Part shown: positions 6,843 to 26,985 of the stretch, one piece after another
Layout of the letters: every line of letters begins with the position of its first letter
How positions within the stretch are numbered: position 1 is the first letter of the stretch
From: Candidatus Altiarchaeales archaeon
GTDB taxonomy: Archaea > Altiarchaeota > Altiarchaeia > IMC4 > SCGC-AAA252-I15
DNA: 64,000 nucleotides
NCBI GenBank assembly: GCA_014727915.1
Contig: WJMO01000006.1
Location: 130,137-194,136 of the forward strand
Direction: 5' to 3'
Made by a program: the position numbers and the translations under genes
The notes under the pieces: generated by a model
What the model was told of the DNA's origin: nothing
What the model saw: only the letters and a program-made list of their open reading frames with translations
Databases searched by the model: none

Positions 6843-7919
6843 TTGAAGACGATTAGTGTTAAGATGCTTTACGGGATATCAACGGCGGTTAAGGCTTTGA
6901 AGTCTTCCTTTATCGTGTTGGCCGCGGCCGCGATCATGCTGGGTGTTCTGTGGGTGGCTTACCCAAACCTAAGGCCTGAGAGCCTGGATTTGAGGGTTAA
7001 CGAGGTTCTGACGGACCCTGGGAGCCTTGGGTGGGATGATGGTTTCATAGAGTTGCACAACACCGGAGATTCCAAGTTAAGCCTGGAGGGTTGGAGCGTG
7101 CGCACGGAGTCGGGTTCGATCAACCTCTTTGGGCATATCGAACCAGGAGGTTATAGGGCGGTCTATGGTGGTCTTTTCTCGGGGGATGTTGAGACTGTCT
7201 CTCTGGTGGACCCACGGGGCAGGGTGGCGGACAGGTACTCCCGTGTGGGGGGGTTGGAAGCTGTTTCAGTCGGCAGAAGCCCTGATGGTATGGGTTCGTG
7301 GACGGGTTTCGTCAACCCCACGCCAGGGGCTCCCAACACGGTGGTTGAGAAGACGCCGACCACGTTGGATACGCTTCCGAAGGTGGAGGTTCCCGATTGC
7401 ATGGAAGAGGAGTACGAGGCCGTCAGGGCTGACACGGCAGAGGAAGGTTTTGGGTCGGTTGATTTCTGCAGGGCATTCGAGGAGGAGATGAGTGATTTGA
7501 ACCCCTACGTCCTACGCAGGATAAACGAGATATCTGACGAGGAGATCAGGGAGGCTATTGCCTTAGGGGTGGCCGAACGGGCTGTCGCAAGAGAGCGGGA
7601 GGAAAGAATCGTGGGTTTGGTCGTGTCGGACGCCGAGCTCATGGACAGCATAAGAGGGCTGATAGGCGATGACCTCTACTCTCTGGGATTGGATGGGGAG
7701 CTCGCCAAGATGAACGGCAGGTTCAAGAGAATGCTGTTCGACATCATACTAAACGGTACCGGCGGCGAGAGAAGGGAGATGAGACTGCAGCTGAAGTACT
7801 ACCTTGAGTCCAGGGAGTCAGGAGGGAGAAAAACGCTGAAGTTCCGACCTGACGAGGTTAGGGTCATGTTATCCGATGGCAGGAGCCTGCAGGAGATTCT
7901 CGTCGAATTGGAGGTTTGA
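6843..7919 (+). CDS. Membrane-anchored lamin-tail-domain (LTD) protein
   Basis: N-terminal TM then LRVNEVLTDPG...GFIELHNTGDSKLSLEGWSV resembling the LTD signature; acidic C-terminal region. Confidence 0.5.
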   Translation: MKTISVKMLYGISTAVKALKSSFIVLAAAAIMLGVLWVAYPNLRPESLDLRVNEVLTDPGSLGWDDGFIELHNTGDSKLSLEGWSVRTESGSINLFGHIEPGGYRAVYGGLFSGDVETVSLVDPRGRVADRYSRVGGLEAVSVGRSPDGMGSWTGFVNPTPGAPNTVVEKTPTTLDTLPKVEVPDCMEEEYEAVRADTAEEGFGSVDFCRAFEEEMSDLNPYVLRRINEISDEEIREAIALGVAERAVAREREERIVGLVVSDAELMDSIRGLIGDDLYSLGLDGELAKMNGRFKRMLFDIILNGTGGERREMRLQLKYYLESRESGGRKTLKFRPDEVRVMLSDGRSLQEILVELEV

Positions 7920-9294: not shown

Positions 9295-10251
9295 TCATAT
9301 AAGGCCTAATAGCTTGCCCATGAAGAAAACATAGAAGAGGGTGAGCATCCACCCCTCCCACATCGTTACCTGCTTGTCCTGAACGATAAAGAAGGCGAGG
9401 ACTGTCGCTACCAGCATCAGGGGTATCCCCAACGCCAGCATCGACTCTGCAATAGCCAGGGTGCCGAACAAGCCGGACACCCCCATGACCAGGAACGAGT
9501 TGAATATGTTGCTCCCGAGTATGTTGCCCAAGGCCAGCTCTGCCTTTCCCTTCCGGGCCGCTGTGCAGGATACCGTAAGCTCGGGAAGACACGTGCCCAA
9601 TGCTATCGCACTCGCTGCCAGAACCCCCTTCCCTATGCCGAGGAACTCTGAGAGCACGACAACGGATTCGATTGTGTACTTCGCGCCCACGTAGATGAAC
9701 AACGCGCTCAACGCCAATGTCACCCACGTGAATTGCGTTATCCTGACCTTCTTGGCCTCCTTCTCCAGCTCCTTGACTTCGGGGCTCTTCTTCCTCTTCT
9801 CAACCGCGAAAGTATAGCCCACATATATCAAGGCACCTGCGAGGGACAGGAAAGCCTCCGGCCGGGTGAAGACCCCATCGTAGGACATCAACGCCAGGAG
9901 GAAGGCTGAGGCTGCGAATATTGGAAGGTCAACGTGTATCACCTCGAAGGTAACGTCCATCTTCTTCGCCAATATGGCGACTATGCCGAGTATTAGGAAT
10001 ATGTTCGCGATGTTGGAGCCGACCACCGTGCCGGAAACTATCTCCGAGCTGCCGTTTAGGACCGCTATCACGGATGATACCATCTCGGGCAGGGATGTGC
10101 CCACGCTGACTATCGTGACACCCACTATGAAGGCGGGAACACCGTAGAAAAGGCCTATCTTCTCGGCTGCGTCAGTGAAGTGCTCCGAAGATTTCACAAG
10201 AACGAAAAGGCTCGAAGCGAACACAACAACCCACAACAGCAGGTCTAGCAT
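9295..10251 (-). CDS. Na+/Ca2+ exchanger family (CaCA) antiporter
   Basis: 318 aa; two alpha-repeat signatures GTSLPEMVSSV and GTCLPELTVS. Confidence 0.8.
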   Translation of the reverse strand: MLDLLLWVVVFASSLFVLVKSSEHFTDAAEKIGLFYGVPAFIVGVTIVSVGTSLPEMVSSVIAVLNGSSEIVSGTVVGSNIANIFLILGIVAILAKKMDVTFEVIHVDLPIFAASAFLLALMSYDGVFTRPEAFLSLAGALIYVGYTFAVEKRKKSPEVKELEKEAKKVRITQFTWVTLALSALFIYVGAKYTIESVVVLSEFLGIGKGVLAASAIALGTCLPELTVSCTAARKGKAELALGNILGSNIFNSFLVMGVSGLFGTLAIAESMLALGIPLMLVATVLAFFIVQDKQVTMWEGWMLTLFYVFFMGKLLGLI

Positions 10252-10282
10252 GATTAATAATCGGGAGACAATAAAATATACG

Positions 10283-11380
10283 ATGGAAGAGGGCTCGGCA
10301 GCGGGTATTTTTCGCGTCTTCTATGATGTGATCCTGAGACCAGGGGAGACCTTGCGCCTGCAAAAGGGGCGTTCCACCTGGAAGAAGGGTTTAACCGCCC
10401 ACTTGGCCGCGGCTGCGGTGATGATATTCTTCCACCTGCACAGGCTGCTATATTTCGAGGATGGGCCCAGCGCATTGGTTGGGGTTTCAGCTTTCGCAAT
10501 GGCATATCTGGCATATTCCTTTTTGCAGCTTTCAGGGGTCTTGATAGCCCATCTTATCTCCAGATTGTTCGGGGGGCGGGGTAGACTTGTTGAGATGCTC
10601 TGGCTGACTGGAACCTATGCTGTGCCCTTGGCTTCCGCAGCCGTTGCCGTGGGAATGCTATCCAATATGTCACTATGGTTCATGGCCATAAACATACCTC
10701 TCCTGGCCTTCGCACTGTGCCTTGACATGATCGCCATAGAGGAAGCCCACGGTCTTTCAAGACCCAAGAGCGTTGGTGCTGTGTTATCTTCTTTCCTGAT
10801 GAAGTTCATAATATTCGCTATGGTAGCGTTCTCCGCGTACTCTGCCAGCCTTATGGCATTAAATTCGGGTTTCATGGGTTTGGACCGTGCGGTGAACGCC
10901 AACAACGTGGAGATATTGGATGTCGGTCAGGCATCGGATACGATAGAGTCTGGGGGATTGGCCTTCCACATGCCAGGGGGGTGGGTCGCGGATAGGGATT
11001 CCAAGGCCCTGAGACTGTTCGGTTACAGGTACTACGTGAAGGGCGATGCTGTTATTATGATTGCGGAGGGAGGCATCATCAGCGGGCTCCTTCCAAGTGA
11101 CGGTCAAGAGTACACTGGCGAATCCTGCAGGTCCATCGAGTTCGGCATGGCCTCGGAGCCGGGGGTGAAAGCAGCCGAGTACGTGGAATACGGGCTAGTT
11201 AGGGGTTGTGAGGCGAGGATGCCCGGGGGGGACGGCGGGGTGCAGATAATATTCCAGGGTGTTGTCTGCGAAGGCCATCCGATAACTTTGACAGTGGTAG
11301 CCCCGGACGACTCCAGCATTTCCAGCGAGGAGGCGGTGTCAGACTACCTGGATCTCATGGAGAGCATATCGTGCGTGTGA
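10283..11380 (+). CDS. Membrane protein with C-terminal soluble domain, hypothetical
   Basis: Track ORF starts at 10175 but overlaps the divergent CaCA start; ATG at 10283 or later is more plausible; several TM helices. Confidence 0.45.
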   Translation: MEEGSAAGIFRVFYDVILRPGETLRLQKGRSTWKKGLTAHLAAAAVMIFFHLHRLLYFEDGPSALVGVSAFAMAYLAYSFLQLSGVLIAHLISRLFGGRGRLVEMLWLTGTYAVPLASAAVAVGMLSNMSLWFMAINIPLLAFALCLDMIAIEEAHGLSRPKSVGAVLSSFLMKFIIFAMVAFSAYSASLMALNSGFMGLDRAVNANNVEILDVGQASDTIESGGLAFHMPGGWVADRDSKALRLFGYRYYVKGDAVIMIAEGGIISGLLPSDGQEYTGESCRSIEFGMASEPGVKAAEYVEYGLVRGCEARMPGGDGGVQIIFQGVVCEGHPITLTVVAPDDSSISSEEAVSDYLDLMESISCV

Positions 11381-11419
11381 AGGTCTGCTTTTAACCATTT
11401 CAACCAAATTATTACTAGG

Positions 11420-12214
11420 ATGGCAGTTGAAGGTCAAGGCCCCGGCGGAGGAGGCGGAGGTCAGGAGCCCATGGTAGAGAGATGCCCCACGGGGATAGAA
11501 GGGCTTGATGAGCTGATCGAAGGCGGACTGCCCAAAGGCAGGGTTGTGCTGTTAGCAGGGGACTGCGGGACGGGCAAGAGCATATTCTCCACACAATTCC
11601 TCTACAACGGGGCTGTGAATTACAACGAGCCGGGGATACTGTTGAGCCTTGAGCAGACTCCGGTAAACCTCAAAAAGGACGCCCTTAACATGGGCTTCGA
11701 CCTGGACGCGCTTGAGAGGCAGGGGAAGCTGGTAATAATCGATGCGAGCCTGTCGGGGCTTGCGTTCAGGAAGTTCAACCGAAAGTACACCATAAGCCCG
11801 CAGGAATTCAGCCTCGACAAGGTGATCGCCCTAATAAACGAGTCTGTCCAGCAGATAGGTGCCAAGAGGGCTGTGGTGGACAGCTTCAGCGCTTTGGAGA
11901 CCGTCTTGGAGGCCAGCTCCGCAAAGGGCGGTGACATACAGGAAGACCTGCGGAAGACCATCGTGGGCATAAACTACAAGCTCCAGAACATGAACCTCAC
12001 ATCATTGCTCATAGGGGATATGATAGGCGGCCAGATAAGCAGGTACAACATAGAGCAGTTCATGGTGGACGGTGTGATAACGCTCGACTATGTCACAGCC
12101 GGGGCTGACGCCGGCAGGCACCTTGTAATCCAGAAGATGCGGGGCACCAAACACAGCGAGAACATACACATGATAGACATAGAGCAGGGTAAGGGCGTCA
12201 TAGTCAAGGGCTGA
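11420..12214 (+). CDS. KaiC/RadA-like RecA-superfamily ATPase (single domain)
   Basis: PTGIEGLDELIEGGLPKGRVVLLAGDCGTGKS Walker A in KaiC-type context. Confidence 0.7.
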   Translation: MAVEGQGPGGGGGGQEPMVERCPTGIEGLDELIEGGLPKGRVVLLAGDCGTGKSIFSTQFLYNGAVNYNEPGILLSLEQTPVNLKKDALNMGFDLDALERQGKLVIIDASLSGLAFRKFNRKYTISPQEFSLDKVIALINESVQQIGAKRAVVDSFSALETVLEASSAKGGDIQEDLRKTIVGINYKLQNMNLTSLLIGDMIGGQISRYNIEQFMVDGVITLDYVTAGADAGRHLVIQKMRGTKHSENIHMIDIEQGKGVIVKG

Positions 12215-13391
12215 CGTCATCGGATAGTATCATGTTTACGTATGAAGCCCAGATGCCGTAGGCTACGAACAATACCGTGTAGTCGAACAGCCCCCCGAGA
12301 TATGATGCCAGGATTGACGGCGCCATCACCGTTGCTATGAGGAGGGGGACATAGTATCGGGTGTGCCTCATCTGCCGGAGGACATAGTAGGTGGGGGCTA
12401 TCAACAGTATGTAAGAGTAGTCTTTGAAACGTGGGACAGCAATCGCGTATACTAGGCATGACATTATTATGACCTGGAGCATTCGGTCTTCGCCGCCGCG
12501 TTCCATCAGGACCTCGCAGGCTCGGAAGGAGAAGCAGAGGACCGGGATTACCAGGAGGGAGTATATCGCCTCCGCAGGTATAGGCAGATGACCCAGTTTC
12601 GAGGAGACTTCTTTCGCGAAGGCATATGAGCTGGGGTTTATGGTGCCCCTCTCCCCGGGGGATGTGACGACAAACTCGGCGTTGTGCAGGTAGCCGCTGA
12701 AGGCCTGCGGAGCAATCACGTATGGTGCCAGTAAGTAGAGTGAGAAAGCAATGGCCGAAATCGCCAGGAGCTTCCAGTGGCGAGCGTCCCCCACGAAAAG
12801 TAGCAGAGCCAGGAATGCGAGTGGTGTGAGCTTGAAGGTGGACGCCAAAACCGTGAAAAACGAGAAGAGCGCGTATCTCTTCTGCAGGAGGAAGTAGAAT
12901 GCGGACCATAGAATCACCTGCTCGAACAATGATATGTTACCTGCGAAGACGTCCTTGAAGACCGCCTCATTGTAGGCCATCAGCCAGAACAGGTAGTAGA
13001 ATACGTCGACTTCACCGTGGAATATCCTCTTCCTCCATGAGAGGAACAGGAAGACCATTGCAGCGTATTTCAGAAGTAGATATAGTTCCTGTGCGAGACC
13101 CCAGTCTAAGACTGTGAATAGCCGGAAGAACATCAGGGTTGGAGGCGGGTAAACGTAGGGGTGGACCGTCTCCCCGGCCATTATCGCAAGCGTTTCTCCG
13201 TCATATGGGTCCAGGCCGTGGCTTTGGGCTTCCGCAGCCGCATAGTATCCTTTGAAGTCCCACTGGCTTATACCGCCCGAGAAGGAGAAGACAGTGAATG
13301 CGAGGAATACAAGGTAGAAGAGCAGGGCAGCCCTGGGCAGGTCCTTGTCGGATAATGGGTCATAAGAGTCCTCCAAAGCCAATGAAACCAC
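12204..13391 (-). CDS. Polytopic membrane protein, putative GT-C-like glycosyltransferase; paralog of 36641..37864
   Basis: 395 aa; shares long blocks with 36641..37864 (NISLFEQ, FKLTPLAFLALLLFVGD, PRFKDYSYILL). Confidence 0.55.
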   Translation of the reverse strand: MVSLALEDSYDPLSDKDLPRAALLFYLVFLAFTVFSFSGGISQWDFKGYYAAAEAQSHGLDPYDGETLAIMAGETVHPYVYPPPTLMFFRLFTVLDWGLAQELYLLLKYAAMVFLFLSWRKRIFHGEVDVFYYLFWLMAYNEAVFKDVFAGNISLFEQVILWSAFYFLLQKRYALFSFFTVLASTFKLTPLAFLALLLFVGDARHWKLLAISAIAFSLYLLAPYVIAPQAFSGYLHNAEFVVTSPGERGTINPSSYAFAKEVSSKLGHLPIPAEAIYSLLVIPVLCFSFRACEVLMERGGEDRMLQVIIMSCLVYAIAVPRFKDYSYILLIAPTYYVLRQMRHTRYYVPLLIATVMAPSILASYLGGLFDYTVLFVAYGIWASYVNMILSDDVSP

Positions 13392-13451
13392 CTTTGATGT
13401 GATGGTTCATCAATTGGGTCGGAATACTTAAATGCCATTAAAAAGGGCATA

Positions 13452-14576
13452 TTGCAATTATATACCATGCGGTGGTTGGTGGCGTCAGCTCTAGTTTTAT
13501 TCGTCTCGGGTTGCATATTCGAGGATCCGGTGATATCCGAGGCTGTTGAGAAGAAGGACCCGGGACTCTGCCTGACGCTCGAGGAATACAGGAGCAGGAG
13601 GGAGTGCTTCCACAAGGTCGCGGTGGCAGCCGGGGACCGGAGCATATGCGACGAATACAGCAAGGAACTCTACGGTGACGCCTGGCAGATGTGCCTTTCA
13701 TCGGTCGCAGTGGAAAATGACGACGTAAGCATCTGCGACAGCATCAACACAACCCTGCATAAGAGCGGGTGCAAGAGCGACATAGCGATAATGCGCAACT
13801 CGACAAGCCTCTGCGAACAAGCTGAGGAAGAACGTGATAGAGACGATTGCAGGTCGCAGATATCAATCAACACAAACAACGTAAGCCTATGCCATGAGGT
13901 AGAGAACGAGTTCACTAAAGACAATTGCATGGGAAAGCTGGCCAAGAAAAACAGCAATCCACAGTTATGCCAGCACATAGAAAGCCGGGTTATGCGGGAC
14001 GTATGCTATGATGAACTGGCGGTTGTTACAGACGATCCTGGGGTCTGCGATGGCATGAGCGAGGGCAATAGCATCGCATGCAAGGCAAAAGTCACCGGAG
14101 ACTCCGGCCTATGCGACAGCCTGGACCCCGGCAAGTTCAACGTCGACCAGTGCATATTGGACGCTGCCAGGAACTCCCTGAAGGAAAGCGACTGCGCTAG
14201 GATAGGGACCGAACACATGAGGCAGATATGCTACAATAACATCGGGGGGGCATCGGGCAGGCCTGAACTCTGCGACAAATCAGGAGACTTGAAGGGGTTC
14301 TGCCTGAAAGACGCCGCCATCTCAGCAGCTAATCCAGAGTACTGCAAGGGCATCAATGAGGTTGGACAGAGAGACAAGTGCATAACGGAAGCAACGGAAG
14401 CCTCCGACACCATGAAGGGATGCGACCTCATTGAAGACGACGAGCGTCGTGAGGACTGCATGAGCAACTGGGTGGAGGAACACCCGGAAGAGCAGGGGCC
14501 TATTTACCGGACGAAGGAAAGGATAAAGGAGAAGGTGGGGGAAGTGGTTGCCAACGCACTTTTGGGTGAGAACTAA
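13452..14576 (+). CDS. Lipoprotein built from ~28-aa cysteine-pair repeats
   Basis: Signal peptide with lipobox-like SGC; recurring spaced Cys pairs across ~300 aa; acidic. Confidence 0.55.
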   Translation: MQLYTMRWLVASALVLFVSGCIFEDPVISEAVEKKDPGLCLTLEEYRSRRECFHKVAVAAGDRSICDEYSKELYGDAWQMCLSSVAVENDDVSICDSINTTLHKSGCKSDIAIMRNSTSLCEQAEEERDRDDCRSQISINTNNVSLCHEVENEFTKDNCMGKLAKKNSNPQLCQHIESRVMRDVCYDELAVVTDDPGVCDGMSEGNSIACKAKVTGDSGLCDSLDPGKFNVDQCILDAARNSLKESDCARIGTEHMRQICYNNIGGASGRPELCDKSGDLKGFCLKDAAISAANPEYCKGINEVGQRDKCITEATEASDTMKGCDLIEDDERREDCMSNWVEEHPEEQGPIYRTKERIKEKVGEVVANALLGEN

Positions 14577-14923: not shown

Positions 14924-15109
14924 ATGGAAAGCTCTGAAAGCGGGAAAAAAGACAGATATAAGTGCAAAGTATGCGGTTACGTGTACGACCCAGAGAAGGG
15001 AGACCCTATTTCTAATATAAAGCCCGGAACAGCCTTCAAGGACATTCCAGAAGGGTGGACGTGCCCGGTTTGCGGCGTTGGAAAAGACCAGTTCGAGAAG
15101 ATAGAGTAG
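14924..15109 (+). CDS. rub: Rubredoxin
   Basis: [10 protein letters not shown]...W.CPVCG signature; TATA-like TTTATATT ~20 nt upstream. Confidence 0.85.
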
Positions 15110-15157
15110 GTTACTCAGGGCATACCAGCCAGTATTTATGCACAGACAACAATAGAT

Positions 15158-15176
15158 AGTTTACAAAAGTAACCAT
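15158..15176 (+). promoter_or_regulatory. Conserved promoter motif AGTTTACAAAAGTAACCAT (copy 1), upstream of Dx-like/FDP operon
   Basis: Identical 19-mer at 18123-18141; contains inverted repeat TTAC-N4-GTAA; 55 nt upstream of GTG 15231. Confidence 0.5.
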
Positions 15177-15230
15177 ATTTTGAGTGGGTGGTGTATTCAT
15201 CCAATTTCATAGCAGATGGAGGTGACCTAA

Positions 15231-15443
15231 GTGGCCAGACAAGGCGACAGACACAAGTGCGGAGTATGTGGCGTGGAGATCATATGCGTAGAAGGCTGCG
15301 GTTGCAGGAAACCCCGTCTGGTATGCTGCGGGAAGGCGATGAGGAAAAAGACAGGCCGGAAGACAGTGAAGAAGAAGGCCGAGAAAAGCGTTAAGAAGAC
15401 CGCTAAGGCCAAGATTAGGAAGGCGGACAATAAAAGGATATGA
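15231..15443 (+). CDS. Desulforedoxin-like (CxxCG...CC) protein with lysine-rich C-terminal tail
   Basis: GDRHKCGVCGVEI...LVCCGKAM matches desulforedoxin Fe(Cys)4 motif; ~30-aa K-rich tail; GGAGGTGA SD 7 nt upstream of GTG. Confidence 0.6.
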   Translation: MARQGDRHKCGVCGVEIICVEGCGCRKPRLVCCGKAMRKKTGRKTVKKKAEKSVKKTAKAKIRKADNKRI

Positions 15444-15449
15444 GGGCGT

Positions 15450-16640
15450 ATGATGGCATGGGAGATGAAAGACGGGATACATAATGTCGGAGCGGTGGAC
15501 TGGGACAGGAGATTGTTCGACGAGCTGATACCACTGCCCGACGGCACAAGCTACAACGCATACCTGGTGAGGGGAAGCGAGAAGACCGCGCTCATAGACA
15601 CGGTAGACCCAACAAAAGAGGATGAGCTGTTCGAGAACCTGGAGAGAACAGGAGTGGACCGGCTGGACTATGTTATACCCAACCACGCTGAACAGGACCA
15701 TTCGGGGACGATACCCAAGGTCCTGGAGAGATACCCAGAAGCAAAGGTAGTGACCAACGGAAAATGCAAGGAGTTCCTGATTGACCTGCTGCACATACAA
15801 GACGACAAGTTCCAGGTGGTGGAGGACGGCGAAACCCTCTCACTTGGGGACAGGACGCTTGAATTCATAATAGCACCGTGGGTCCACTGGCCCGAGACCA
15901 TGCTCACATACCTAAGAGAGGACAGGATACTCTTCTCATGCGACCTGTTCGGGTCCCACCTGGCAACCAGCGACAAGTATGTGAAAGACGAATCCAAGGT
16001 GTTGGAAGACGCCAAGAGATACTACGCGGAGATCATGATGCCCTTCAGAAAGCTGATCAACGGGCATCTGGAGAAGCTGAGGGGATACGACATCGAAGTC
16101 ATAGCAGCCAGCCACGGACCATTGTATGACAGGCCTGAATCCATAATGGAGGCATACAGGGATTGGACCTCAGACGACGTTAAAAACGAGGTGGTGATAG
16201 CGTACGTGTCGATGCACGGAAGCACCGAGAGGATGGTTGAACGCTTCGCCAACACCCTTATCGAGCGCGGCATCCGGGTAAGGCCGTTCAACCTGGCCGG
16301 GTCTGATGTGGGAGAGCTTGCTATGGCTCTTGTGGACGCTGCAACCCTGGTTGTCGGCACCCCAACGGTCCTGGCAGGACCGCACCCCGCAGCCGTTTAC
16401 GCGGCATATCTCGCGAACGCATTGAGGCCCAAGACACGGTATGCGACGGTCATAGGATCATACGGGTGGGGGGGAAGGACAGTGGACCAGGTCAAGAGCA
16501 TGCTGCAGAACCTTAGCGTCGAATTCCTCGAGCCGGTGATAGTCAAAGGGCTTCCGAGAGCGGATGACATGAGAGAACTCGACCGGCTGGCAGACAGCAT
16601 ACTTAAAAAGCACCAGGAACATAACATCATAGGTGAATAG
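15450..16640 (+). CDS. fprA: Flavodiiron protein (metallo-beta-lactamase + flavodoxin domains)
   Basis: 396 aa; diiron site HAEQDHSG; C-terminal flavodoxin-like domain. Confidence 0.85.
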   Translation: MMAWEMKDGIHNVGAVDWDRRLFDELIPLPDGTSYNAYLVRGSEKTALIDTVDPTKEDELFENLERTGVDRLDYVIPNHAEQDHSGTIPKVLERYPEAKVVTNGKCKEFLIDLLHIQDDKFQVVEDGETLSLGDRTLEFIIAPWVHWPETMLTYLREDRILFSCDLFGSHLATSDKYVKDESKVLEDAKRYYAEIMMPFRKLINGHLEKLRGYDIEVIAASHGPLYDRPESIMEAYRDWTSDDVKNEVVIAYVSMHGSTERMVERFANTLIERGIRVRPFNLAGSDVGELAMALVDAATLVVGTPTVLAGPHPAAVYAAYLANALRPKTRYATVIGSYGWGGRTVDQVKSMLQNLSVEFLEPVIVKGLPRADDMRELDRLADSILKKHQEHNIIGE

Positions 16641-17117
16641 GTGCCTGAAATGGAAGGGGAAGAACTGCGTAAGAGCATACAGGAGTACATCGAAGGGCAC
16701 AACGTCTGCACCATAGCGGTGACAGACGGCGAGAACCCCTCGGCCCATACCATGTACTACGTGAGCCACGGCATCCACATATACCTGGAATCAGACCCCA
16801 ACTCCCAGAAGATACACGTGCTAAATGCAAACCCCAGGATATCATTGACCATAGACGAGGACTACCAGGACTGGAGGCAGATAAAGGGCATACAGCTTTT
16901 CGGACGCGCCAACCTGACGGACGAAAGGCATGCCCCAAGGCTTCAGGAAGCCTTCTCGAGGAAGTTCCCCCACATAAACGACCTCGGAGGCATACCCAAT
17001 CATCACATCTTCATAGAGGTAATACCAGAGAAGATATACTACATGGACTTCACTGAAAAGTTCGGGCAGAGGAACATATACTACGTTGACGAGAAAAAAT
17101 CCGTTATAAACTGGTGA
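16641..17117 (+). CDS. Pyridoxamine 5'-phosphate oxidase-like FMN-binding split-barrel protein
   Basis: 158 aa; PNPOx-like pattern; ATG overlaps upstream stop. Confidence 0.6.
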   Translation: MPEMEGEELRKSIQEYIEGHNVCTIAVTDGENPSAHTMYYVSHGIHIYLESDPNSQKIHVLNANPRISLTIDEDYQDWRQIKGIQLFGRANLTDERHAPRLQEAFSRKFPHINDLGGIPNHHIFIEVIPEKIYYMDFTEKFGQRNIYYVDEKKSVINW

Positions 17118-17177
17118 CCCGTCAGTTACTTGACCGTAACCCTTGCATTTATACGCCTGTAAGACGGATAATGACCT

Positions 17178-17822
17178 GTGAAAGAGGGACTGCCGCTTCT
17201 CGCGTTGCTTGTCATATTCTCAGGGTGCCTTCAGACGCAGGTAATAGGGTTGGACGGGGTTGAAGTCCGGGACTACGAGGGCAAGGACCTGTCCTCCATA
17301 AACGACTTCAGGGAGAACTCCATCCGGGGGCCGCAGCAAATAAACGCAAGCACATACAGGTTGGAGGTCACTGGATTGGTCGACAACCCGGGGGAATACA
17401 CCTACGAGGACATCCTGAACCACCAGCGATACTCCAAGATAGTAACCCTATACTGTGTTGAAGGATGGGATGTCACCATACTATGGGAGGGAGTGCTCGT
17501 CAGGGACCTGTTGGAAGAAGCGGAAGTCATGCCGGAAGCCGACACCGTGATATTCCACGCCCAAGACGGTTACAGCACGTCACTGCCCCTCAGCTACTTC
17601 ACGGAAAACGACATAATACTCGCCTACAGCATGAACAACGTCACCCTCCCGGCGGAGCGGGGGTTCCCCTTCCAGCTTGTCGCAGAGGACAAGTGGGGAT
17701 ACAAGTGGGTGAAGTGGGTTACTGAAATCGAGGTTTCGGACGAGCCGGACTACAGAGGATACTGGGAGACCCGCGGATATAACCAGGACGGGTCCGTTGA
17801 CGGCCCCGTATTCGAGAGATGA
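17178..17822 (+). CDS. Molybdopterin-dependent oxidoreductase (sulfite oxidase/MsrP-YedY family), lipoprotein
   Basis: Signal peptide + SGC; Mo-ligand context LYCVEGWDV. Confidence 0.7.
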   Translation: MKEGLPLLALLVIFSGCLQTQVIGLDGVEVRDYEGKDLSSINDFRENSIRGPQQINASTYRLEVTGLVDNPGEYTYEDILNHQRYSKIVTLYCVEGWDVTILWEGVLVRDLLEEAEVMPEADTVIFHAQDGYSTSLPLSYFTENDIILAYSMNNVTLPAERGFPFQLVAEDKWGYKWVKWVTEIEVSDEPDYRGYWETRGYNQDGSVDGPVFER

Positions 17823-17852
17823 GCTTAAATAGACAGCATCACATTCAAGACT

Positions 17853-18062
17853 ATGGCAGTGGCTGAGATCGCATACGCGGAATTCGCGGGCGTTGCGTTG
17901 ATAGTCTGGTCCGGGATATCCTCGCTGGCCCTGGTGGTTCTGACCGCCCTAACGGGCAGGAACTTGCTGCCTGTGAAATACCACAGGAAGCTGGCTTTTG
18001 CTGCGATCTTCTTCGCATTTGGCCATGGCATCCTGGCTGCAGCCGCAAACCTTGGGCTCTGA
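17853..18062 (+). CDS. Small membrane protein (2 TM), hypothetical
   Basis: 69-aa hydrophobic ORF directly after the Mo-oxidoreductase gene. Confidence 0.35.
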   Translation: MAVAEIAYAEFAGVALIVWSGISSLALVVLTALTGRNLLPVKYHRKLAFAAIFFAFGHGILAAAANLGL

Positions 18063-18122
18063 ACAAGGTAACCAATAGGATACCCCAAGGTTTATATTGG
18101 ACAACAACCAAATAGAGAATGC

Positions 18123-18141
18123 AGTTTACAAAAGTAACCAT
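18123..18141 (+). promoter_or_regulatory. Conserved promoter motif AGTTTACAAAAGTAACCAT (copy 2), upstream of glutaredoxin/TrxB operon
   Basis: Identical to 15158-15176; extended similarity (acaacaa...tagag) on the 5' side; ~42 nt upstream of ATG 18183. Confidence 0.5.
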
Positions 18142-18182
18142 GTCTGGTTTTATATGTGTTAAAAGAAGTAGGTGATGCAAGT

Positions 18183-18419
18183 ATGGACAAGATAAAAGTG
18201 TACTCGACCCCGACATGCCCCTGGTGCAAGAAGCTGAAGGGATGGTTGGACGAGAAAGGAGTCAAATACGAGGACTTTGACGTCTCCTCAGACCACGAGG
18301 CAGCCCGTGAGATGATAGAGAAGAGCGGACAGATGGGAGTGCCCCAGACAGACATCGGAGGCAAGGTCATAGTGGGATTCGACCCGGACTCCATCGAGAA
18401 GGAATTAGAAGATGCATGA
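18183..18419 (+). CDS. Glutaredoxin/NrdH-like thiol-disulfide oxidoreductase
   Basis: CPWC active site; ATG 18183 preceded by GGTGA; track start 18156 is probably too early. Confidence 0.75.
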   Translation: MDKIKVYSTPTCPWCKKLKGWLDEKGVKYEDFDVSSDHEAAREMIEKSGQMGVPQTDIGGKVIVGFDPDSIEKELEDA

Positions 18420-19314
18420 TACAGTGATCGTGGGAGGGGGAATAGCAGGTTTGACCGCGGCACTGTACGCCTCAAGGAAGCGGATGGACTACCGCATAAT
18501 CTCCTCAGAGATGGGAGGCCAATTCTACGCCAGCGGGGAGATACTCAACTACCCCGGAGTCGTCGAAACCGACGGCGTTGAATTCCAGAAGACCATGGAA
18601 GAGCAGATGAGGAAAAACGACGTCGAAGTGGTCAGAGAGACAGTCGAGAAAGTGGAAAGGGCAGGAGAAGACTTCAACGTGATTACAGACAAGAGAGAAT
18701 ACGAGACGAAGACCGTAATATTAGCAACTGGAGCCCGCCCAAGGAAGCTTGGAGTCCCAGGGGAGGAGAAGCTCCTGAAGAAGGGCGTGACATACTGTAG
18801 CATATGCGACGGACCCCTCTTCAATGCCATGGACGTGGCAGTCATAGGCGGGGGAAACTCCGCACTGGAGGCGGTGGACTTCATAGGGGACATAGCATCC
18901 AAGATATACGTGCTGACGAACGAGGCGGAATTCAGAGCGCACGAATACCTCCAGGAAAAGGCAAAGGACAACCCAAAGGTGGAGGCAATGTTCAACGCAG
19001 ATATCAAGGAGATAGCAGGTGATGAGTTCGTCAATTCGTTGAAGTACGAGGCAGACGGCAGGGAGAGGACGATAGATGTGAAAGGCGTGATAATCGAGAT
19101 AGGCAGGACGCCGAACACTGAGAATTTCAAGGACCTGGTCGAAACAGACAATGAAGGCCACATAAAAGTTGACTGCCGCGCGCAGACCAGCACAGCCGGT
19201 GTGTTCGCAGCGGGAGACTGCACGGACGGGCACGAATACCAGTACGTGATAGCCGCAGGCCAGGGCTGCATGGCCCTTCTAAAGGCCGCACGCTACCTAG
19301 CGATGAACAGGTAA
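18412..19314 (+). CDS. trxB: Thioredoxin-disulfide reductase
   Basis: Two GxGxxG/A dinucleotide motifs and redox-active CSICDG. Confidence 0.85.
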   Translation: MHDTVIVGGGIAGLTAALYASRKRMDYRIISSEMGGQFYASGEILNYPGVVETDGVEFQKTMEEQMRKNDVEVVRETVEKVERAGEDFNVITDKREYETKTVILATGARPRKLGVPGEEKLLKKGVTYCSICDGPLFNAMDVAVIGGGNSALEAVDFIGDIASKIYVLTNEAEFRAHEYLQEKAKDNPKVEAMFNADIKEIAGDEFVNSLKYEADGRERTIDVKGVIIEIGRTPNTENFKDLVETDNEGHIKVDCRAQTSTAGVFAAGDCTDGHEYQYVIAAGQGCMALLKAARYLAMNR

Positions 19315-19335
19315 ATAACATATTAGGTGATGTAA

Positions 19336-19824
19336 ATGGGCACAAGAGGACGGGAAATCGTCGGTTTGGACGTTGAAAAGCTCATAGTAGAGCTGAACAG
19401 GGCATTGTCAGACGAATGGCTGGCATACTACCAGTACTGGATAGGGTCGAAAGTCGTTGTGGGCCCGATGAGGGACGCGGTCGTGGCGGAGCTGACAGAG
19501 CACGCTAACGACGAGCTAAGGCACGCCGGAATGCTCGCCGACAGGATAATGCAGTTGGAAGGCGCGCCAGTGCTGAAACCAGAGGAATGGTATGACATGT
19601 GCAACTGCGGATACGACAGCCCAGATGACCCAGCAGTCAGGAAGATACTAGACCAGAACATCAAAGGCGAGCAGTGCGCGATAGACGTGTACAACAAGAT
19701 CATGAAGATGACAGAGGGCAAAGACCCCATAACATACCAGATGGCCTTCGAAATCATGAGAGACGAGGTAGAGCACGAAGACGACCTGCAAGCCATCGCA
19801 GAGGATATCAAAGGAATCAAATGA
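19336..19824 (+). CDS. Ferritin-like/Dps-like diiron protein
   Basis: 162 aa; four-helix-bundle ferritin-like carboxylate/His pattern. Confidence 0.65.
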   Translation: MGTRGREIVGLDVEKLIVELNRALSDEWLAYYQYWIGSKVVVGPMRDAVVAELTEHANDELRHAGMLADRIMQLEGAPVLKPEEWYDMCNCGYDSPDDPAVRKILDQNIKGEQCAIDVYNKIMKMTEGKDPITYQMAFEIMRDEVEHEDDLQAIAEDIKGIK

Positions 19825-19835
19825 GGTGAAAAAGA

Positions 19836-20219
19836 ATGAGCACAAAAGAAAGGGGCGAAGTGTACAAGTGCAACGTCTGCGGCAACATCGTTGAGGTGCT
19901 GATCGTTGGCGGTGGAGAGCTAGTATGCTGCGAAAAGCCCATGGAACTTTTAGAGGAGAAGACAGAGGATGAGGGCAACGAAAAACACGTGCCAGTCATA
20001 GAGAAGACCGAGGACGGCGTTAAGGTGAAGGTCGGGAGCGTGCCACACCCCATGGAGGAAAAGCACCACATCCAATTTATCGAAGTGCACTCTGACGGGA
20101 TGATACACCGGAGATACCTGAAGGCAGGAGACAAGCCAGAAGCGGATTTCATACTGTCCTCGGAAGTGCAGAAGGCCCGGGAATACTGCAACATACACGG
20201 CCTCTGGGGTAGCGGATAA
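19836..20219 (+). CDS. dfx: Desulfoferrodoxin (2Fe superoxide reductase)
   Basis: N-terminal desulforedoxin motif CNVCGNIV...VCCEKPM; SOR domain KHVPVIE...HH...CNIHGLW. Confidence 0.85.
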
Positions 20220-20220
20220 G

Positions 20221-20367
20221 GTGACGGGAAAGAGGCACTGGCGTTGCAACGTCTGCAACGACATACACTACGGCAACGCAGGCCCCAAAGTCTGCCCTAC
20301 CTGCAACGTGGAGAACGCATACGTCGAGGTAGACACTGAAGAAGCCAGGAAAGTGATGGGACTATGA
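20221..20367 (+). CDS. Small rubredoxin-like zinc-ribbon protein (48 aa), not in ORF track
   Basis: GTG start 2 nt after dfx stop; WRCNVCNDIHYGNAGPKVCPTCN (CxxC-x16-CxxC); stop overlaps ATG of next gene (ATGA). Confidence 0.5.
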   Translation: MTGKRHWRCNVCNDIHYGNAGPKVCPTCNVENAYVEVDTEEARKVMGL

Positions 20368-20630
20368 ACAAGGAGGAACTGCTCGAGGCCTGGAAGAGGT
20401 TCACGGAAAAGAACGACTTCAGGCTGAACCCGGACAAGGAGCACGTGGACATGATACTGGACGGCGTTCTAGCTAACGAGAAGGAACACGGCCTGAAGCT
20501 CTGCCCCTGCAGGATCCGGGACGGCACCAGAGAAAGAGACCTTCAGCTCATCTGCCCCTGCAACTTCAAAACCCACGAAACATGGGCTGAGAAGGGACAA
20601 TGCTGGTGCGGGCTTTTCGTGAAAAGATGA
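20364..20630 (+). CDS. Ferredoxin:thioredoxin reductase catalytic-subunit-like protein
   Basis: CPC...CPC...CWC spacing characteristic of FTR catalytic subunit. Confidence 0.7.
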   Translation: MNKEELLEAWKRFTEKNDFRLNPDKEHVDMILDGVLANEKEHGLKLCPCRIRDGTRERDLQLICPCNFKTHETWAEKGQCWCGLFVKR

Positions 20631-20642
20631 GCCATGCACGCC

Positions 20643-21023
20643 CTAGGTTATGGCCATGTGGCATTGGGCCCTGACAGAAGGGTCCGATATCCTATCGCAT
20701 AGTTTACGGTTGCCAGTCGCCACCCCGACCCTGCCGATGCAAAGTTCCCTATGTTCCGGTACAGAGACCTTATCGCATATTTTAACGTCCATGAGCTCAG
20801 AGGCGGTGTTAATGTAACACAGGTCCTTGAGATTTCCCTCACGCCCCTCACACGCACCCGGGTCAGTGTACTCTGCAGTGGGCTCGCCCGCGTCATCTTC
20901 CGCCCGTGGGTCCTCTGGCATCATATTCGGCCTTGAAGGCACTGCAACGGCAGCCCCGCCAACACCCTCCCCTCCAATGCACCCGCATAAGAGCAGAATA
21001 GAGAGTACTGCGAAGAATCTCAT
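20643..21023 (-). CDS. Lipoprotein with cysteine-pair repeats (same family as 13452..14576)
   Basis: Signal peptide + CGC; DLCYINTAS...KICDKV...RELCIG...RKLCDRISDP...AQC. Confidence 0.5.
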   Translation of the reverse strand: MRFFAVLSILLLCGCIGGEGVGGAAVAVPSRPNMMPEDPRAEDDAGEPTAEYTDPGACEGREGNLKDLCYINTASELMDVKICDKVSVPEHRELCIGRVGVATGNRKLCDRISDPSVRAQCHMAIT

Positions 21024-21029
21024 AGCATA

Positions 21030-21587
21030 CTATTCGACATACCTGTTCTTATATGCGAACTCGCTGGCTTCCTTCCGGGGAGGCCTCTGCTTCTCCCCCA
21101 GTCTCTGCTTCTCGCTCAGATAGTCGGGGACGGACTCACTGTGCCTGCCCACAACCAACAAGGCTATGACCTCGTATTCGCCGGGTATGCCAAGAACCTC
21201 GCGCACCTTCTTGGGGCTGTAGCCCGCGATGGGATGGGCCACCAAACCTAGTTCGGTGGCTTGGAGGATCATGAAGGCCGTCGCCAAACCGACGTCGAAG
21301 TTGTTATAAACGCGATCCTTTATCACGCAGTCATCGTCTGGCTTGCTGAAGACAGCCACTATCAGCGAAGCCTCCCTAGCCCACCTATTGCCATCTGACA
21401 GGGCCCCATGAAGCTCGGACAACACCGCAGGATCGTATGCGAGCACGTAGCGCCAGGGCTGGTTGTTGTTGCAGGAGGGAGCGAGGCGGGCGGCAGACGC
21501 AAGATCATCGACCAACTCTTCCGTTACCTCGAACTTCTCCAGGGCACGGTAAGCCCTCCTCCCCTCAATGGCCTCGCGGACATCCAC
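21030..21587 (-). CDS. Nitroreductase-family protein
   Basis: 185 aa; nitroreductase-like FMN-binding pattern (RRAYRAL...PSCNNNQPW). Confidence 0.7.
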   Translation of the reverse strand: MDVREAIEGRRAYRALEKFEVTEELVDDLASAARLAPSCNNNQPWRYVLAYDPAVLSELHGALSDGNRWAREASLIVAVFSKPDDDCVIKDRVYNNFDVGLATAFMILQATELGLVAHPIAGYSPKKVREVLGIPGEYEVIALLVVGRHSESVPDYLSEKQRLGEKQRPPRKEASEFAYKNRYVE

Positions 21588-21588
21588 T

Positions 21589-22089
21589 TTACATCGTAAC
21601 GGTCTTGAAGTCGTGGAACTCCCCCGTTTCGGTCACGAACTCCGCCTCAGACTCGAGTATGGAACGGTGCTTCTCCTCCTCCTTGACCATCTTTTCGAAG
21701 AATATCTTGGACTCGTCGTCGGGGGCGTTCGCGGACATCCAATTGTAGAGGTCGATGCTGTTCTCCTCCGCCTTTATGGCGATGTTCAGCGCATCCAAGG
21801 CGTCAGCCATGTCGTCCAAGCTGCCGCCTGGAACTTTCTCCTCGAAGACGCCGCTAGGGTCGTATTCCTTCTTCGAATCCACGTACATGCAATACTGCTC
21901 GTCGTATAACCGCTTGTATACTTCAGCGATGTTGTTAAAATGCACCCGCTCCTCGGAGGCGAGATGCTCGAACATTGCACTACCGTCCTTGTTGTATGTC
22001 TTCTTCGCGCAGCCCAGGTAGAAAGCCTCACCCTCCAACTCCAGGTCCAACGCCCTGTTAAAACCCTCGCAAACGTCCTTCACATCCAT
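21589..22089 (-). CDS. Rubrerythrin-family ferritin-like diiron protein (no rubredoxin domain)
   Basis: E..E..H diiron pairs; ATG at 22089 preferred over TTG 22110; TATA-like box ~22 nt upstream. Confidence 0.65.
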   Translation of the reverse strand: MDVKDVCEGFNRALDLELEGEAFYLGCAKKTYNKDGSAMFEHLASEERVHFNNIAEVYKRLYDEQYCMYVDSKKEYDPSGVFEEKVPGGSLDDMADALDALNIAIKAEENSIDLYNWMSANAPDDESKIFFEKMVKEEEKHRSILESEAEFVTETGEFHDFKTVTM

Positions 22090-22244
22090 TTTGAAACCAC
22101 ATTTTTTCAAATTTTTTAAAATATTTCCGAATTATTTAGGAATTTCCCAAAACAATTTATAACCCGTAGGGTATATAAAAGACTTGGTATGCGCGGAGTT
22201 ACCTGGTTCTATTTTAAAAGAGAACCACATCTGATTAAAACACG

Positions 22245-26115: not shown

Positions 26116-26985
26116 ATGGTGGATGACAGTATCAGAGAAGACATCCTGAAAGCCCAGGAGAACGAGATAACGGAGTACCTCATCTACAGGAGACTTGCGG
26201 AAGCCACCAGCGACCGGAAAAACAGCGAATTGCTTAGGAGGATAGGCGAGGACGAGCTGGCCCACTATGAATTCTGGCGAGATCACAGCGGAGAGGACGT
26301 TAAACCCGACACGTTCAAGGTGTGGCGATACACCATGGCCGCTAAGCTGTTGGGTCTGACGTTCGCGGTGAAGCTGATGGAGCAGGGTGAGGAACGGGCG
26401 CAGATAGCATACGATGATATCTCAAAGCACATCCCAGAAGCTGCTAGGATAATCGAGGAGGAGGACGAGCATGAAGGGCAGCTGCTGGGCATGTTGGACG
26501 AGGAGAGGCTGAGGTACATGGGGTCTGTCGTGCTGGGACTGAACGACGCCCTCGTGGAGTTGACCGGCGCACTGGCAGGGTTCACACTCGCCTTCCAGGA
26601 CAGCAGACTAGTTGCTGTTACGGGTTTGATAATGGGTTTCGCGGCGTCGCTTTCCATGGCAGCCAGCGAGTACCTGGCAACCAAGTCGGAGGATGATGGC
26701 AAACACCCGGTTAAAGCCTCGGTGTACACCGGCTCCGCTTATGTGCTGACCGTGGCGCTTCTGATACTGCCCTACCTAGCATTAACCAACATCTACCTGA
26801 GCCTGGCGTTCACGTTGGTGAACGCAATCCTGGTGATCGCGTTCTTCACATTCTACATCTCAGTCGCGAAGGACCTAAGCTTCAGAGAGCGGTTCCTGGA
26901 GATGGCGGGCATCAGCATGGGAGTGGCCCTGCTCACCTTCATAATCGGGTACGCTGTAAGGTCCGTGTTCGGAGTCGACTTCTAA
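26116..26985 (+). CDS. VIT1/CCC1-family Fe/Mn transporter with N-terminal ferritin-like domain
   Basis: Ferritin-like (E...EDEHEGQ) N-terminus fused to VIT1-type TM domain. Confidence 0.7.

What the first reader, a model, noticed from the sequence alone, without database searches (positions are those of the whole stretch)
13452..14576. Lipoproteins built from a cysteine-pair repeat not obviously matching a known domain
The ORFs at 13452..14576 and 20643..21023 both start with a lipobox and consist of ~28-aa units with two spaced Cys each. They may be disulfide-stabilised surface repeat proteins; the second lies within the ROS island.
Basis: seen in the sequence. Interest (0 to 1): 0.45.

Follow-up and report, generated by a model that had tools for sequence, protein, structure and literature searches.

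The report
Cysteine-pair helical repeat surface lipoproteins
Two exported, probably lipid-anchored proteins of an Altiarchaeales archaeon are built from a 26-residue two-helix repeat with one invariant cysteine pair per repeat; the repeat has no Pfam or NCBIfam model and no solved structure, and it is common in the tiny-celled DPANN archaea and CPR bacteria.

Summary
P1 (13467..14576, +) has a signal peptide and lipobox followed by 12 units. P2 (20643..21023, -) has a signal peptide and lipobox, a linker of about 37 aa, and 3 units. Every unit is C-x11-C, and units are joined by x13.

The repeat is not an orphan. An exhaustive profile search found 6418 cluster representatives (2263 at E<=1e-10). 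Every member that carries a name is called "hypothetical protein". Where the organism is known, members come mostly from DPANN archaea and CPR/Patescibacteria. Most have a signal peptide, lipobox or transmembrane anchor.

AlphaFold2 with orthologues (pLDDT 87.6) gives a solenoid of 12 units, each a short helix plus a long helix with one Cys on each.

Repeat arrays start on the first Cys and end on the second, and Cys counts are even. This points to one disulfide staple per unit. That pairing is inferred, not shown.

The function is probably an extracytoplasmic binding scaffold or surface protein. This is inferred from analogy and weakly supported.

I could find no comparative support for a link between P2 and the oxidative-stress island it sits in. 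This is a new repeat family within a known structural class, of moderate interest.

The parts
13467..13514 (+). P1 signal peptide and lipobox (MRWLVASALVLFVSGC). Cys16 is the predicted lipid-attachment residue. An alternative TTG start lies at 13452.
   Evidence: Direct reading. The NCBI protein P0001 starts at this ATG. Cys16 is conserved in at least 90% of collinear orthologues. This region has low pLDDT in the model, as expected for a signal peptide.
13515..13553 (+). P1 conserved N-terminal capping helix (IFEDPVISEAVEK), immediately before the first unit.
   Evidence: The F-E-D-P-x-x-x-E-A-V motif is conserved in orthologues (A6). Helix 21-29 in both AF2 models.
13554..14483 (+). P1 repeat array: 12 units of about 26 aa. 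Each unit is a short helix carrying Cys A, a turn, and a long helix carrying Cys B (C-x11-C). Units are joined by x13.
   Evidence: Cys spacing. Unit alignment. All 24 Cys are conserved (28 invariant columns in all): 22 invariant and 2 in at least 90% of orthologues. AF2 with orthologues gives pLDDT 87.6, with most 10-residue blocks in residues 21-330 above 90, and alternating helices of 5-6 and 14-15 residues. Family HMM E=1e-52.
14484..14576 (+). P1 acidic/basic C-terminal tail (predicted helix, low confidence) and stop codon.
   Evidence: pLDDT below 55 for residues 341-369. The tail is variable among orthologues; several end in a short hydrophobic ...GF/FF segment that P1 lacks.
20979..21023 (-). 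P2 signal peptide and lipobox (MRFFAVLSILLLCGC).
   Evidence: Direct reading.
20868..20978 (-). P2 low-complexity Gly/Pro/Glu/Asp-rich linker (aa 16-52), probably a flexible tether.
   Evidence: Direct reading. It contains no Cys and gives no repeat HMM match.
20643..20867 (-). P2 repeat array: 3 units (6 Cys, spacings 11/14/12/14/12), plus the stop codon.
   Evidence: Family HMM built from other organisms' proteins gives E=8e-14.
21030..22110 (-). Two genes immediately upstream of P2 on the same strand: rubrerythrin-like (21589..22110) and nitroreductase (21030..21587). The nitroreductase stop and the P2 start are 6 nt apart, so this is probably one transcript. They are context, not demonstrated functional partners.
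   Evidence: ORF coordinates. Pfam PF02915 and PF00881. No conserved synteny was found elsewhere.

Best explanation
P1 and P2 are exported proteins of an Altiarchaeales archaeon, tethered to the membrane. Their mature parts are alpha-solenoids built from a previously unannotated 26-residue repeat.

The proposed mechanism has four steps.
1. A Sec-type signal peptide ending in a lipobox directs export. The protein is probably lipid-anchored at the lipobox Cys. This is inferred from sequence.
2. Each unit, consensus [KN]-D-x-S-[IL]-C-[ED]-K-I-x5-[KR]-D-x-C-Y-x-x-[VI]-A-x3, folds into a short helix and a long helix. The units stack into a rod-like solenoid: 12 turns in P1, and 3 turns on a flexible linker in P2. 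This comes from a confident AF2 prediction.
3. The two invariant Cys of a unit, one on each helix (C-x11-C), form an intra-unit disulfide staple that stabilises the thin solenoid outside the cell. This is inferred from array architecture and Cys parity.
4. The variable, acidic, solvent-exposed surface acts as a binding or scaffolding platform on the cell surface, or in the inter-membrane space of the double-membraned Altiarchaeota. Other secreted helical-hairpin repeats such as TPR and Sel1-like proteins work this way. This step rests on analogy and is the weakest.

The two genes are paralogues within a very large family. The family is concentrated in DPANN archaea and CPR/Patescibacteria and is often present in several copies per genome.
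For: Family membership and size:
- A repeat profile made from window sequences only (A1) found 6418 cluster representatives at E<=1e-3, 2263 at E<=1e-10 and 140 at E<=1e-30 among 1.84 billion.
- In the top 152 members, Cys-Cys spacings peak sharply at 12 (n=1391) and 14 (n=1729).
- Both Cys columns are 100% Cys in 546 full units.

Export:
- 129 of 152 top members have an N-terminal hydrophobic segment, and 78 of 152 have a lipobox-like motif.
- The rare fused domains are extracellular types: DUF5667, bacterial TSP3, PKD (a sub-threshold hit, 22.4 bits against a cutoff of 27), PG_binding_1 and Lcl_C.

Taxonomy:
- Every member that carries a name is a 'hypothetical protein'. Where the organism is given, it is Altiarchaeota, Micrarchaeota, Iainarchaeum/Diapherotrites, Nanoarchaeota, Aenigmarchaeota, Parcubacteria, Paceibacterota or Nealsonbacteria.
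- Of 79 loci in GTDB species genomes, about 32 are DPANN and about 24 are CPR. Another 15 or so are unclassified. Nine titles name other lineages: Methanosarcinales x3, Methanophagales, Hydrothermarchaeales, Bathyarchaeia, Bdellovibrionales, a Mollicutes MAG and Candidatus Oleincola secundus.

Fold:
- AF2 with 10 collinear orthologues gives pLDDT 87.6 and pTM 0.73. It shows 12 repeats of a 5-6-residue helix followed by a 14-15-residue helix. Cys A sits in the short helix and Cys B in the long one.

Pairing:
- Arrays with no other Cys within 22 aa begin with an A-type Cys 68 times against 5.
- They end with a B-type Cys 123 times against 8.
- Isolated arrays have an even Cys count 23 times against 3.
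- Mature-protein Cys counts are even in 188 of 243 proteins.
- P2 has 3 units, an odd number, so 4-Cys sites shared between neighbouring units are unlikely.

No CxxC or CxxCH motif is present.
Against: - No coordinates were available, so Cys-Cys distances in the model could not be measured.
- From the helix boundaries alone, neither the A(i)-B(i) nor the B(i)-A(i+1) pairing is geometrically obvious.
- A co-loss test for pairing was uninformative because Cys losses are too rare.
- From general knowledge, Altiarchaeales and most DPANN and CPR organisms live in anoxic, often sulfidic water. Extracellular disulfide formation and stability there are not assured. No disulfide-forming enzyme was looked for beyond this window.
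- Archaeal lipoprotein processing was not tested.
- No conserved gene neighbour exists: at most 4 of 79 loci share any neighbour family. The binding-scaffold function therefore rests on analogy only.
Confidence: 0.55

Rival explanations
1. Redox-active thiol array. The Cys pairs are functional thiols or disulfides that buffer or sense oxidants outside the cell, for example as a sacrificial thiol shield or an extracytoplasmic redox relay. P2 would be a true component of the oxidative-stress island.
For: P2 is the last gene of a tight same-strand trio of rubrerythrin-like, nitroreductase and P2, with a 6-nt gap before P2. The trio sits inside a cluster that also holds rubredoxin, a flavodiiron protein, desulfoferrodoxin, ferritin, a thioredoxin-reductase-like protein and an FTR catalytic subunit. 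The Cys are invariant.
Against: - No CxxC or other redox-active motif is present. The two Cys lie 11 residues apart on different helices, which is typical of structural pairs.
- None of the 79 family loci from other genomes has a homologue of any ROS gene of this window beside it.
- P2 has no close relative in GTDB species genomes.
- 80 metagenomic loci carrying the nitroreductase homologue have no family member within 4 kb.
- P1 and its Altiarchaeota orthologue sit in unrelated contexts.
Confidence: 0.12
2. Metal-binding array. The Cys pairs, possibly with the conserved Asp residues, coordinate Fe, Zn, Cu or other thiophilic metals. This would make the proteins extracytoplasmic metal stores, chaperones or detoxifiers.
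For: Two invariant Cys plus two well-conserved Asp per unit (D at position 2 in 78%, D at position 16 in 44%). Metal-homeostasis genes are nearby: a heavy-metal P-type ATPase with HMA domains, a rubrerythrin-VIT1 fusion and ferritin. The habitat is anoxic, which keeps thiols reduced (general knowledge).
Against: - Only two Cys per unit, on separate helices, with no CxxC and no conserved His.
- The first Asp is in a D-P-x-x helix N-cap position.
- Arrays with odd numbers of units, such as P2 with 3, argue against 4-Cys sites shared by unit pairs.
- The even-Cys parity and A-first/B-last architecture are the signature expected for disulfide-bonded modules.
- The PDB profile searches returned only four chance-level hits, two of E=0.9-1.2 and two of E=1.9, three of them ferritin heavy chains.
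Confidence: 0.1
3. A highly divergent member of an already curated helical repeat family, namely Sel1-like repeats (as in the Helicobacter cysteine-rich proteins) or TPR. On this view the family is not new.
Against: - No Sel1, TPR or any other Pfam repeat hit at E<=10 for P1 and P2, at E<=1 for 10 consensus-like relatives, or at E<=0.001 for 10 more.
- The period is 26 aa, against 34 for TPR and 36-44 for Sel1.
- The first helix is only 5-6 residues long.
Confidence: 0.08

Closest known systems
Sel1-like repeat (SLR) proteins, especially the Helicobacter cysteine-rich proteins HcpA/B/C (Pfam PF08238)
   Different: - The period is 26 aa, not 36-44.
- The first helix is only 5-6 residues long.
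- The Cys spacing is C-x11-C.
- The consensus is different.
- There is no PF08238 hit, even at permissive thresholds.
- The host range is DPANN and CPR rather than Proteobacteria.
TPR, PPR and designed helical repeat (DHR) alpha-solenoids
Bacterial-type lipoproteins (lipobox-dependent anchoring)
   Same: An N-terminal basic residue, a hydrophobic core and an [LVI][ASTVI][GAS]C lipobox in P1 (V-S-G-C); P2 has a near match (L-C-G-C). About half of the top family members have such a motif.
   Different: The host is an archaeon, and lipid modification and processing were not tested here. Many family members use an uncleaved transmembrane anchor instead.

Membership tests
Sel1-like repeat / Hcp family (PF08238) | Significant match to the Sel1 profile | tested here: not met
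   hmmscan against Pfam-A at E<=10 for P1 and P2, at E<=1 for 10 strong relatives and at E<=0.001 for 10 more. No Sel1 hit in any of them.
Sel1-like repeat / Hcp family (PF08238) | Repeat period of 36-44 residues with two helices of similar length | tested here: not met
   The period is 26 aa. The helices are 5-6 and 14-15 residues long.
Sel1-like repeat / Hcp family (PF08238) | One disulfide per repeat bridging the two helices (the Hcp subgroup) | tested here: inconclusive
   Each unit has one Cys on each helix. Array-end and parity statistics favour intra-unit pairing. No coordinates or chemistry were available to confirm it.
Tetratricopeptide repeat (TPR clan) | 34-residue period, the TPR consensus and a Pfam TPR-clan match | tested here: not met
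Lipobox lipoprotein | A signal peptide with a basic n-region and a hydrophobic h-region, ending in [LVI][ASTVI][GAS]-C | tested here: met
   P1 MRWLVASALVLFV-S-G-C and P2 MRFFAVLSILL-L-C-G-C. The Cys is conserved in at least 90% of P1 orthologues.
Lipobox lipoprotein | Actual diacylglyceryl or archaeal lipid modification and signal-peptide cleavage | not testable with these tools
   This needs mass spectrometry or labelling. The processing enzymes were not searched for outside the window.
The unannotated 26-aa Cys-pair repeat family defined here | Tandem units matching [KN]D-x-S-[IL]-C-[ED]-K-I-x5-[KR]-D-x-C-Y-x2-[VI]-A with alternating C-x11-C-x13 spacing | tested here: met
   An HMM built from other organisms' units gives P1 E=1e-52 and P2 E=8e-14. 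In the reciprocal direction, a profile from the window finds 6418 representatives.
The unannotated 26-aa Cys-pair repeat family defined here | An N-terminal export or anchor signal | tested here: met
   Present in P1 and P2. 129 of 152 top members have an N-terminal hydrophobic segment.

The most novel reading that the evidence does not exclude
The 26-residue Cys-pair repeat may be a genuinely undescribed extracellular domain shared across the two domains of life. It would be disulfide-stapled, and it has thousands of members. It has expanded mainly in the ultra-small DPANN archaea and CPR bacteria. There it could form the rod-like surface proteins that mediate attachment to host cells or to the matrix. 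Its shared presence in both groups would then reflect inter-domain gene transfer within a common lifestyle. P2 would additionally be a stress-regulated miniature version.
Probability: 0.25. Interest if true: 0.75.

Novelty: new variant of a known kind. Interest (0 to 1): 0.5.

Why it matters
DPANN archaea and CPR bacteria make up a large share of microbial diversity and are thought to live attached to other cells. Most of their surface proteins are still annotated as "hypothetical".

This repeat has no Pfam or NCBIfam model, no solved structure, and no description in the literature that I could search. Yet it is found in thousands of exported proteins of exactly these lineages.

- Defining it as a family would remove a large block of "hypothetical protein" annotations.
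- It would give a concrete set of candidate surface or adhesion proteins to test.
- Its short, highly idealised, Cys-stapled two-helix unit is also a natural template for repeat-protein engineering.

For this window the practical result is modest. P1 and P2 are structural surface proteins of a new repeat type. There is no evidence that P2 takes part in oxygen detoxification.

Tried and rejected
1. A word-indexed protein search with P1 alone found only 3 proteins. The same search with a 53-column repeat alignment found nothing, because too few 5-mer words were shared. It worked only with full-length members.
2. Aligning 93 long members so they could be scanned in bulk against Pfam failed internally. 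It was replaced by two 10-protein scans.
3. A Cys co-loss test for disulfide partners gave nothing. Detected units almost never lack a Cys: about 25 single losses and 4 double losses among 1554 triple-unit hits. It was replaced by the array-end and parity test.
4. A scan of GTDB genomes for close relatives of P2 found none.
5. A 24-sequence triple-unit alignment was too divergent to seed a scan. A 5-sequence subfamily alignment worked, but it biases the taxonomic sample toward that subfamily.
6. The conserved-neighbour analysis of 79 loci found no recurrent neighbour and no ROS genes.
7. The synteny test through the nitroreductase gave 80 metagenomic loci at 55-68% identity. None had a family member, and only one had the rubrerythrin-like gene, so they are not syntenic and the test says little.
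8. The AFDB50 fold library was unavailable. The viral library gave nothing.
9. Two exact-sequence cluster look-ups added almost no taxonomy.
10. Four literature searches found no description of the repeat.
11. A heme, Fe-S or thioredoxin-like function was considered and rejected, because there is no CxxC or CxxCH motif.

Full report
**1. The observation**

The ORF list confirms a 374-codon ORF at 13452..14576 (+) and a 126-codon ORF at 20643..21023 (-). I call them P1 and P2.

From the ATG at 13467, P1 is 100% identical over 369 aa to an NCBI entry, 'MAG: hypothetical protein GF416_04535 [Candidatus Altiarchaeales archaeon]'. The window therefore comes from an Altiarchaeales genome.

Both proteins begin with a basic residue, a hydrophobic stretch and a lipobox: P1 ...LFV-S-G-C and P2 ...LL-L-C-G-C.

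After the lipobox Cys, P1 has 24 Cys whose spacings alternate about 12 and 14 residues. P2 has 6 Cys with spacings 11/14/12/14/12.

That gives 12 units in P1 and 3 units in P2.

The periodicity is far beyond chance. In P1 all 23 spacings fall within 10-15 aa, against 0 of 100000 shuffles (maximum 14). In P2 all 5 do, against 13 of 100000 shuffles.

**2. No known family claims the repeat**

- Pfam-A and NCBIfam return nothing relevant for P1 or P2, even at E<=10.
- Twenty strong relatives, including near-consensus ones, also have no repeat-family hit in Pfam.
- Profile searches of all PDB chain sequences with two repeat alignments (A1, A2) find nothing.
- Four full-text literature searches found no description of such a repeat.

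It was not met.

**3. P1 and P2 belong to a very large family**

I built a profile from seven double units taken only from the window (A1) and searched it exhaustively against 1.84 billion cluster representatives. It found 6418 proteins at E<=1e-3, 2263 at E<=1e-10 and 140 at E<=1e-30.

In the top 152 members:
- Cys-Cys spacings peak at 12 (n=1391) and 14 (n=1729).
- 129 have an N-terminal hydrophobic segment.
- 78 have a lipobox-like motif.

From 546 complete units the consensus is [KN]-D-x-S-[IL]-C-[ED]-K-I-x5-[KR]-D-x-C-Y-x-x-[VI]-A-x3. Both Cys columns are 100% Cys.

A reciprocal test used an HMM built almost wholly from other organisms' units. Among all six-frame ORFs of the window it picks out only P1 (E=1e-52) and P2 (E=8e-14).

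**4. Who has it**

Every member that carries a name is called 'hypothetical protein'. Where the organism is given, it is Altiarchaeota/Altiarchaeales, Micrarchaeota, Iainarchaeum/Diapherotrites, Nanoarchaeota, Aenigmarchaeota, Parcubacteria, Paceibacterota or Nealsonbacteria. The precomputed Pfam column is empty for almost all of them.

A scan of one genome per GTDB species, seeded with a subfamily alignment, returned 79 loci:

| Group | Approximate number of loci | Lineages named |
|---|---|---|
| DPANN archaea | 32 | Iainarchaeum, Nano-, Woese-, Micr-, Nanohalo-, Altiarchaeota |
| CPR/Patescibacteria | 24 | Lipton-, Parcu-, Paceibacterota, Nealson-, Moranii-, Gracili-, Jorgensen-, Doudna-, 'Saccharibacteria' |
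| Unclassified MAGs | 15 | - |
| Others | 9 | Methanosarcinales x3, Methanophagales, Hydrothermarchaeales, Bathyarchaeia, Bdellovibrionales, a Mollicutes MAG, Candidatus Oleincola secundus |

Copy number can be high. One Iainarchaeum MAG contributes six loci. Another Altiarchaeota contig carries a P1 orthologue and a second, 259-aa member 6.5 kb away.

The rare fused domains are extracellular types: DUF5667, bacterial TSP3, PKD (a sub-threshold hit), PG_binding_1, Fib_succ_major and Lcl_C. The seed pattern biases this sample, so the proportions are indicative only.

**5. Structure**

P1 has collinear orthologues of 360-396 aa, one of them named as Altiarchaeota. All 24 repeat Cys, the lipobox Cys (at least 90%) and an N-terminal F-E-D-P..E-A-V helix are conserved in them (A6).

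AlphaFold2 with the single sequence already gave pLDDT 74.7. With A6 it gave pLDDT 87.6 and pTM 0.73, and most 10-residue blocks in residues 21-330 are above 90.

The model is all-alpha. It has twelve repeats of a 5-6-residue helix, a 3-5-residue turn and a 14-15-residue helix. Cys A is in the short helix and Cys B is near the middle of the long one.

Fold comparison gives only generic alpha-solenoids:

| Search | Best results |
|---|---|
| Foldseek against PDB | Best E=0.045 |
| Foldseek against viral structures | Nothing at E<=1e-3 |

So the structural class (helical-hairpin solenoid) is known, but the repeat itself has no solved or curated relative.

**6. What the cysteines do**

Model coordinates are not returned by the tools, so Cys-Cys distances could not be measured. 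I used sequence statistics instead.

If the two Cys of one unit pair with each other, arrays should start with an A-type Cys, end with a B-type Cys, and contain an even number of Cys. I counted only array ends with no other Cys within 22 aa:
- Arrays start with A 68 times and with B 5 times.
- Arrays end with B 123 times and with A 8 times.
- Isolated arrays are even 23 times and odd 3 times.
- The mature-protein Cys count is even in 188 of 243 members.

P1 (A...B, 24 Cys) and P2 (A...B, 6 Cys) follow the rule. This is the pattern expected for one intra-unit disulfide (C-x11-C) stapling the short helix to the long helix.

Three points argue against metal or redox-catalytic sites:
- There is no CxxC or CxxCH motif.
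- There is no conserved His.
- Arrays with odd numbers of units exist, such as P2.

Caveats:
- A co-loss test was uninformative.
- The helix boundaries do not settle the pairing.
- These organisms live in anoxic, often sulfidic water, where disulfide formation is not guaranteed (general knowledge).

**7. Function and context**

P1 is monocistronic. It diverges from a GT87-family membrane glycosyltransferase gene and converges on an OB-fold SSB-like gene. Its Altiarchaeota orthologue has entirely different neighbours.

Across 79 family loci, no neighbour family recurs in more than 4 loci. Gene context therefore gives no functional clue.

The best-supported reading combines the evidence already set out:
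- an export signal
- lipid or transmembrane anchoring
- a rod-like stapled solenoid
- an acidic, variable surface (pI 4.6-4.7)
- expansion into paralogues
- extracellular fusion partners

Together these point to a cell-surface or inter-membrane binding and scaffolding protein, analogous to secreted TPR and Sel1-like proteins. This last step is inference by analogy.

**8. P2 and the ROS island**

P2 is the last gene of a tight same-strand trio of rubrerythrin-like, nitroreductase and P2, with a 6-nt gap before P2. The trio lies inside a cluster that also holds rubredoxin, a flavodiiron protein, a PNPOx-like protein, a molybdopterin oxidoreductase, a thioredoxin-reductase-like protein, ferritin, desulfoferrodoxin and an FTR catalytic subunit. 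Co-transcription is therefore likely.

I found no comparative support for a functional link:
- P2 has no close relative in GTDB species genomes.
- No family locus elsewhere sits beside homologues of these ROS genes.
- 80 metagenomic loci with the nitroreductase homologue have no family member within 4 kb, although those loci are not syntenic, so this is weak evidence.

I keep a redox role as a minority rival.

**9. Verdict**

The proteins are members of a large repeat family that is so far unannotated. It is a new variant within the known class of helical-hairpin solenoids. It most likely has one disulfide staple per unit and is concentrated in DPANN archaea and CPR bacteria.

Interest is moderate. 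Nothing about it is mechanistically revolutionary. But it is a family with thousands of members, shared between the two domains, on the surface of organisms whose surface biology is largely unknown.

Noticed in passing
window 15231..15443 (+): A 70-aa ORF between the rubredoxin and flavodiiron genes. It has a desulforedoxin-like Cys pattern (KCGVCG...LVCCGKAM) followed by a lysine-rich basic tail. Its only Pfam match is sub-threshold: Desulfoferrod_N, E=0.095.
   Followed up: partly
window 14924..22110: A dense oxidative-stress cluster: rubredoxin, flavodiiron protein, PNPOx-like protein, molybdopterin oxidoreductase, thioredoxin-reductase-like protein, ferritin, desulfoferrodoxin, FTR catalytic subunit, nitroreductase and rubrerythrin-like protein. 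Further on come a rhodanese, an Ogg-type 8-oxoguanine glycosylase, a rubrerythrin-VIT1 fusion (26116..26985) and a heavy-metal P-type ATPase with HMA domains (26982..29426).
   Followed up: partly
A6 alignment, C-termini of P1 orthologues (P0046, P0038, P0133, P0097, P0093): Several P1 orthologues end in a Ser/Thr/Gly-rich stretch followed by a short hydrophobic segment that ends ...GF...IF or ...FF. P1 itself lacks this. It could be a second anchor or a sorting signal in these double-membraned archaea.
   Followed up: no
window 13425..13460, upstream of P1: The 75-bp divergent intergenic region between the GT87 gene and P1 contains an AT-rich TATA-like stretch and a short inverted repeat (AATGCC-ATTAAAAA-GGGCAT) just before the ATG. 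Its significance is unknown.
   Followed up: no
L160 2774..3553 (-) and 11131..13590 (+): In another Altiarchaeota contig, the P1 orthologue is accompanied by a second family member of 259 aa (HMM E=4e-32). It is directly followed by an 819-aa exported protein with no Pfam domain.
   Followed up: partly
window 6843..7919 (+) and 10175..12214 (+): A protein with a Lamin Tail Domain (PF00932, E=2.5e-10), and a Yip1-domain membrane protein followed by a KaiC-like ATPase, lie upstream of the GT87 gene.
   Followed up: no
loci L038, L047, L066, L053, L077, L052, L028: A few family members are in MAGs labelled Methanosarcinales, Methanophagales, Bathyarchaeia, Bdellovibrionales and Mollicutes, outside DPANN and CPR. 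They could be real transfers or binning contamination. This was not examined.
   Followed up: no
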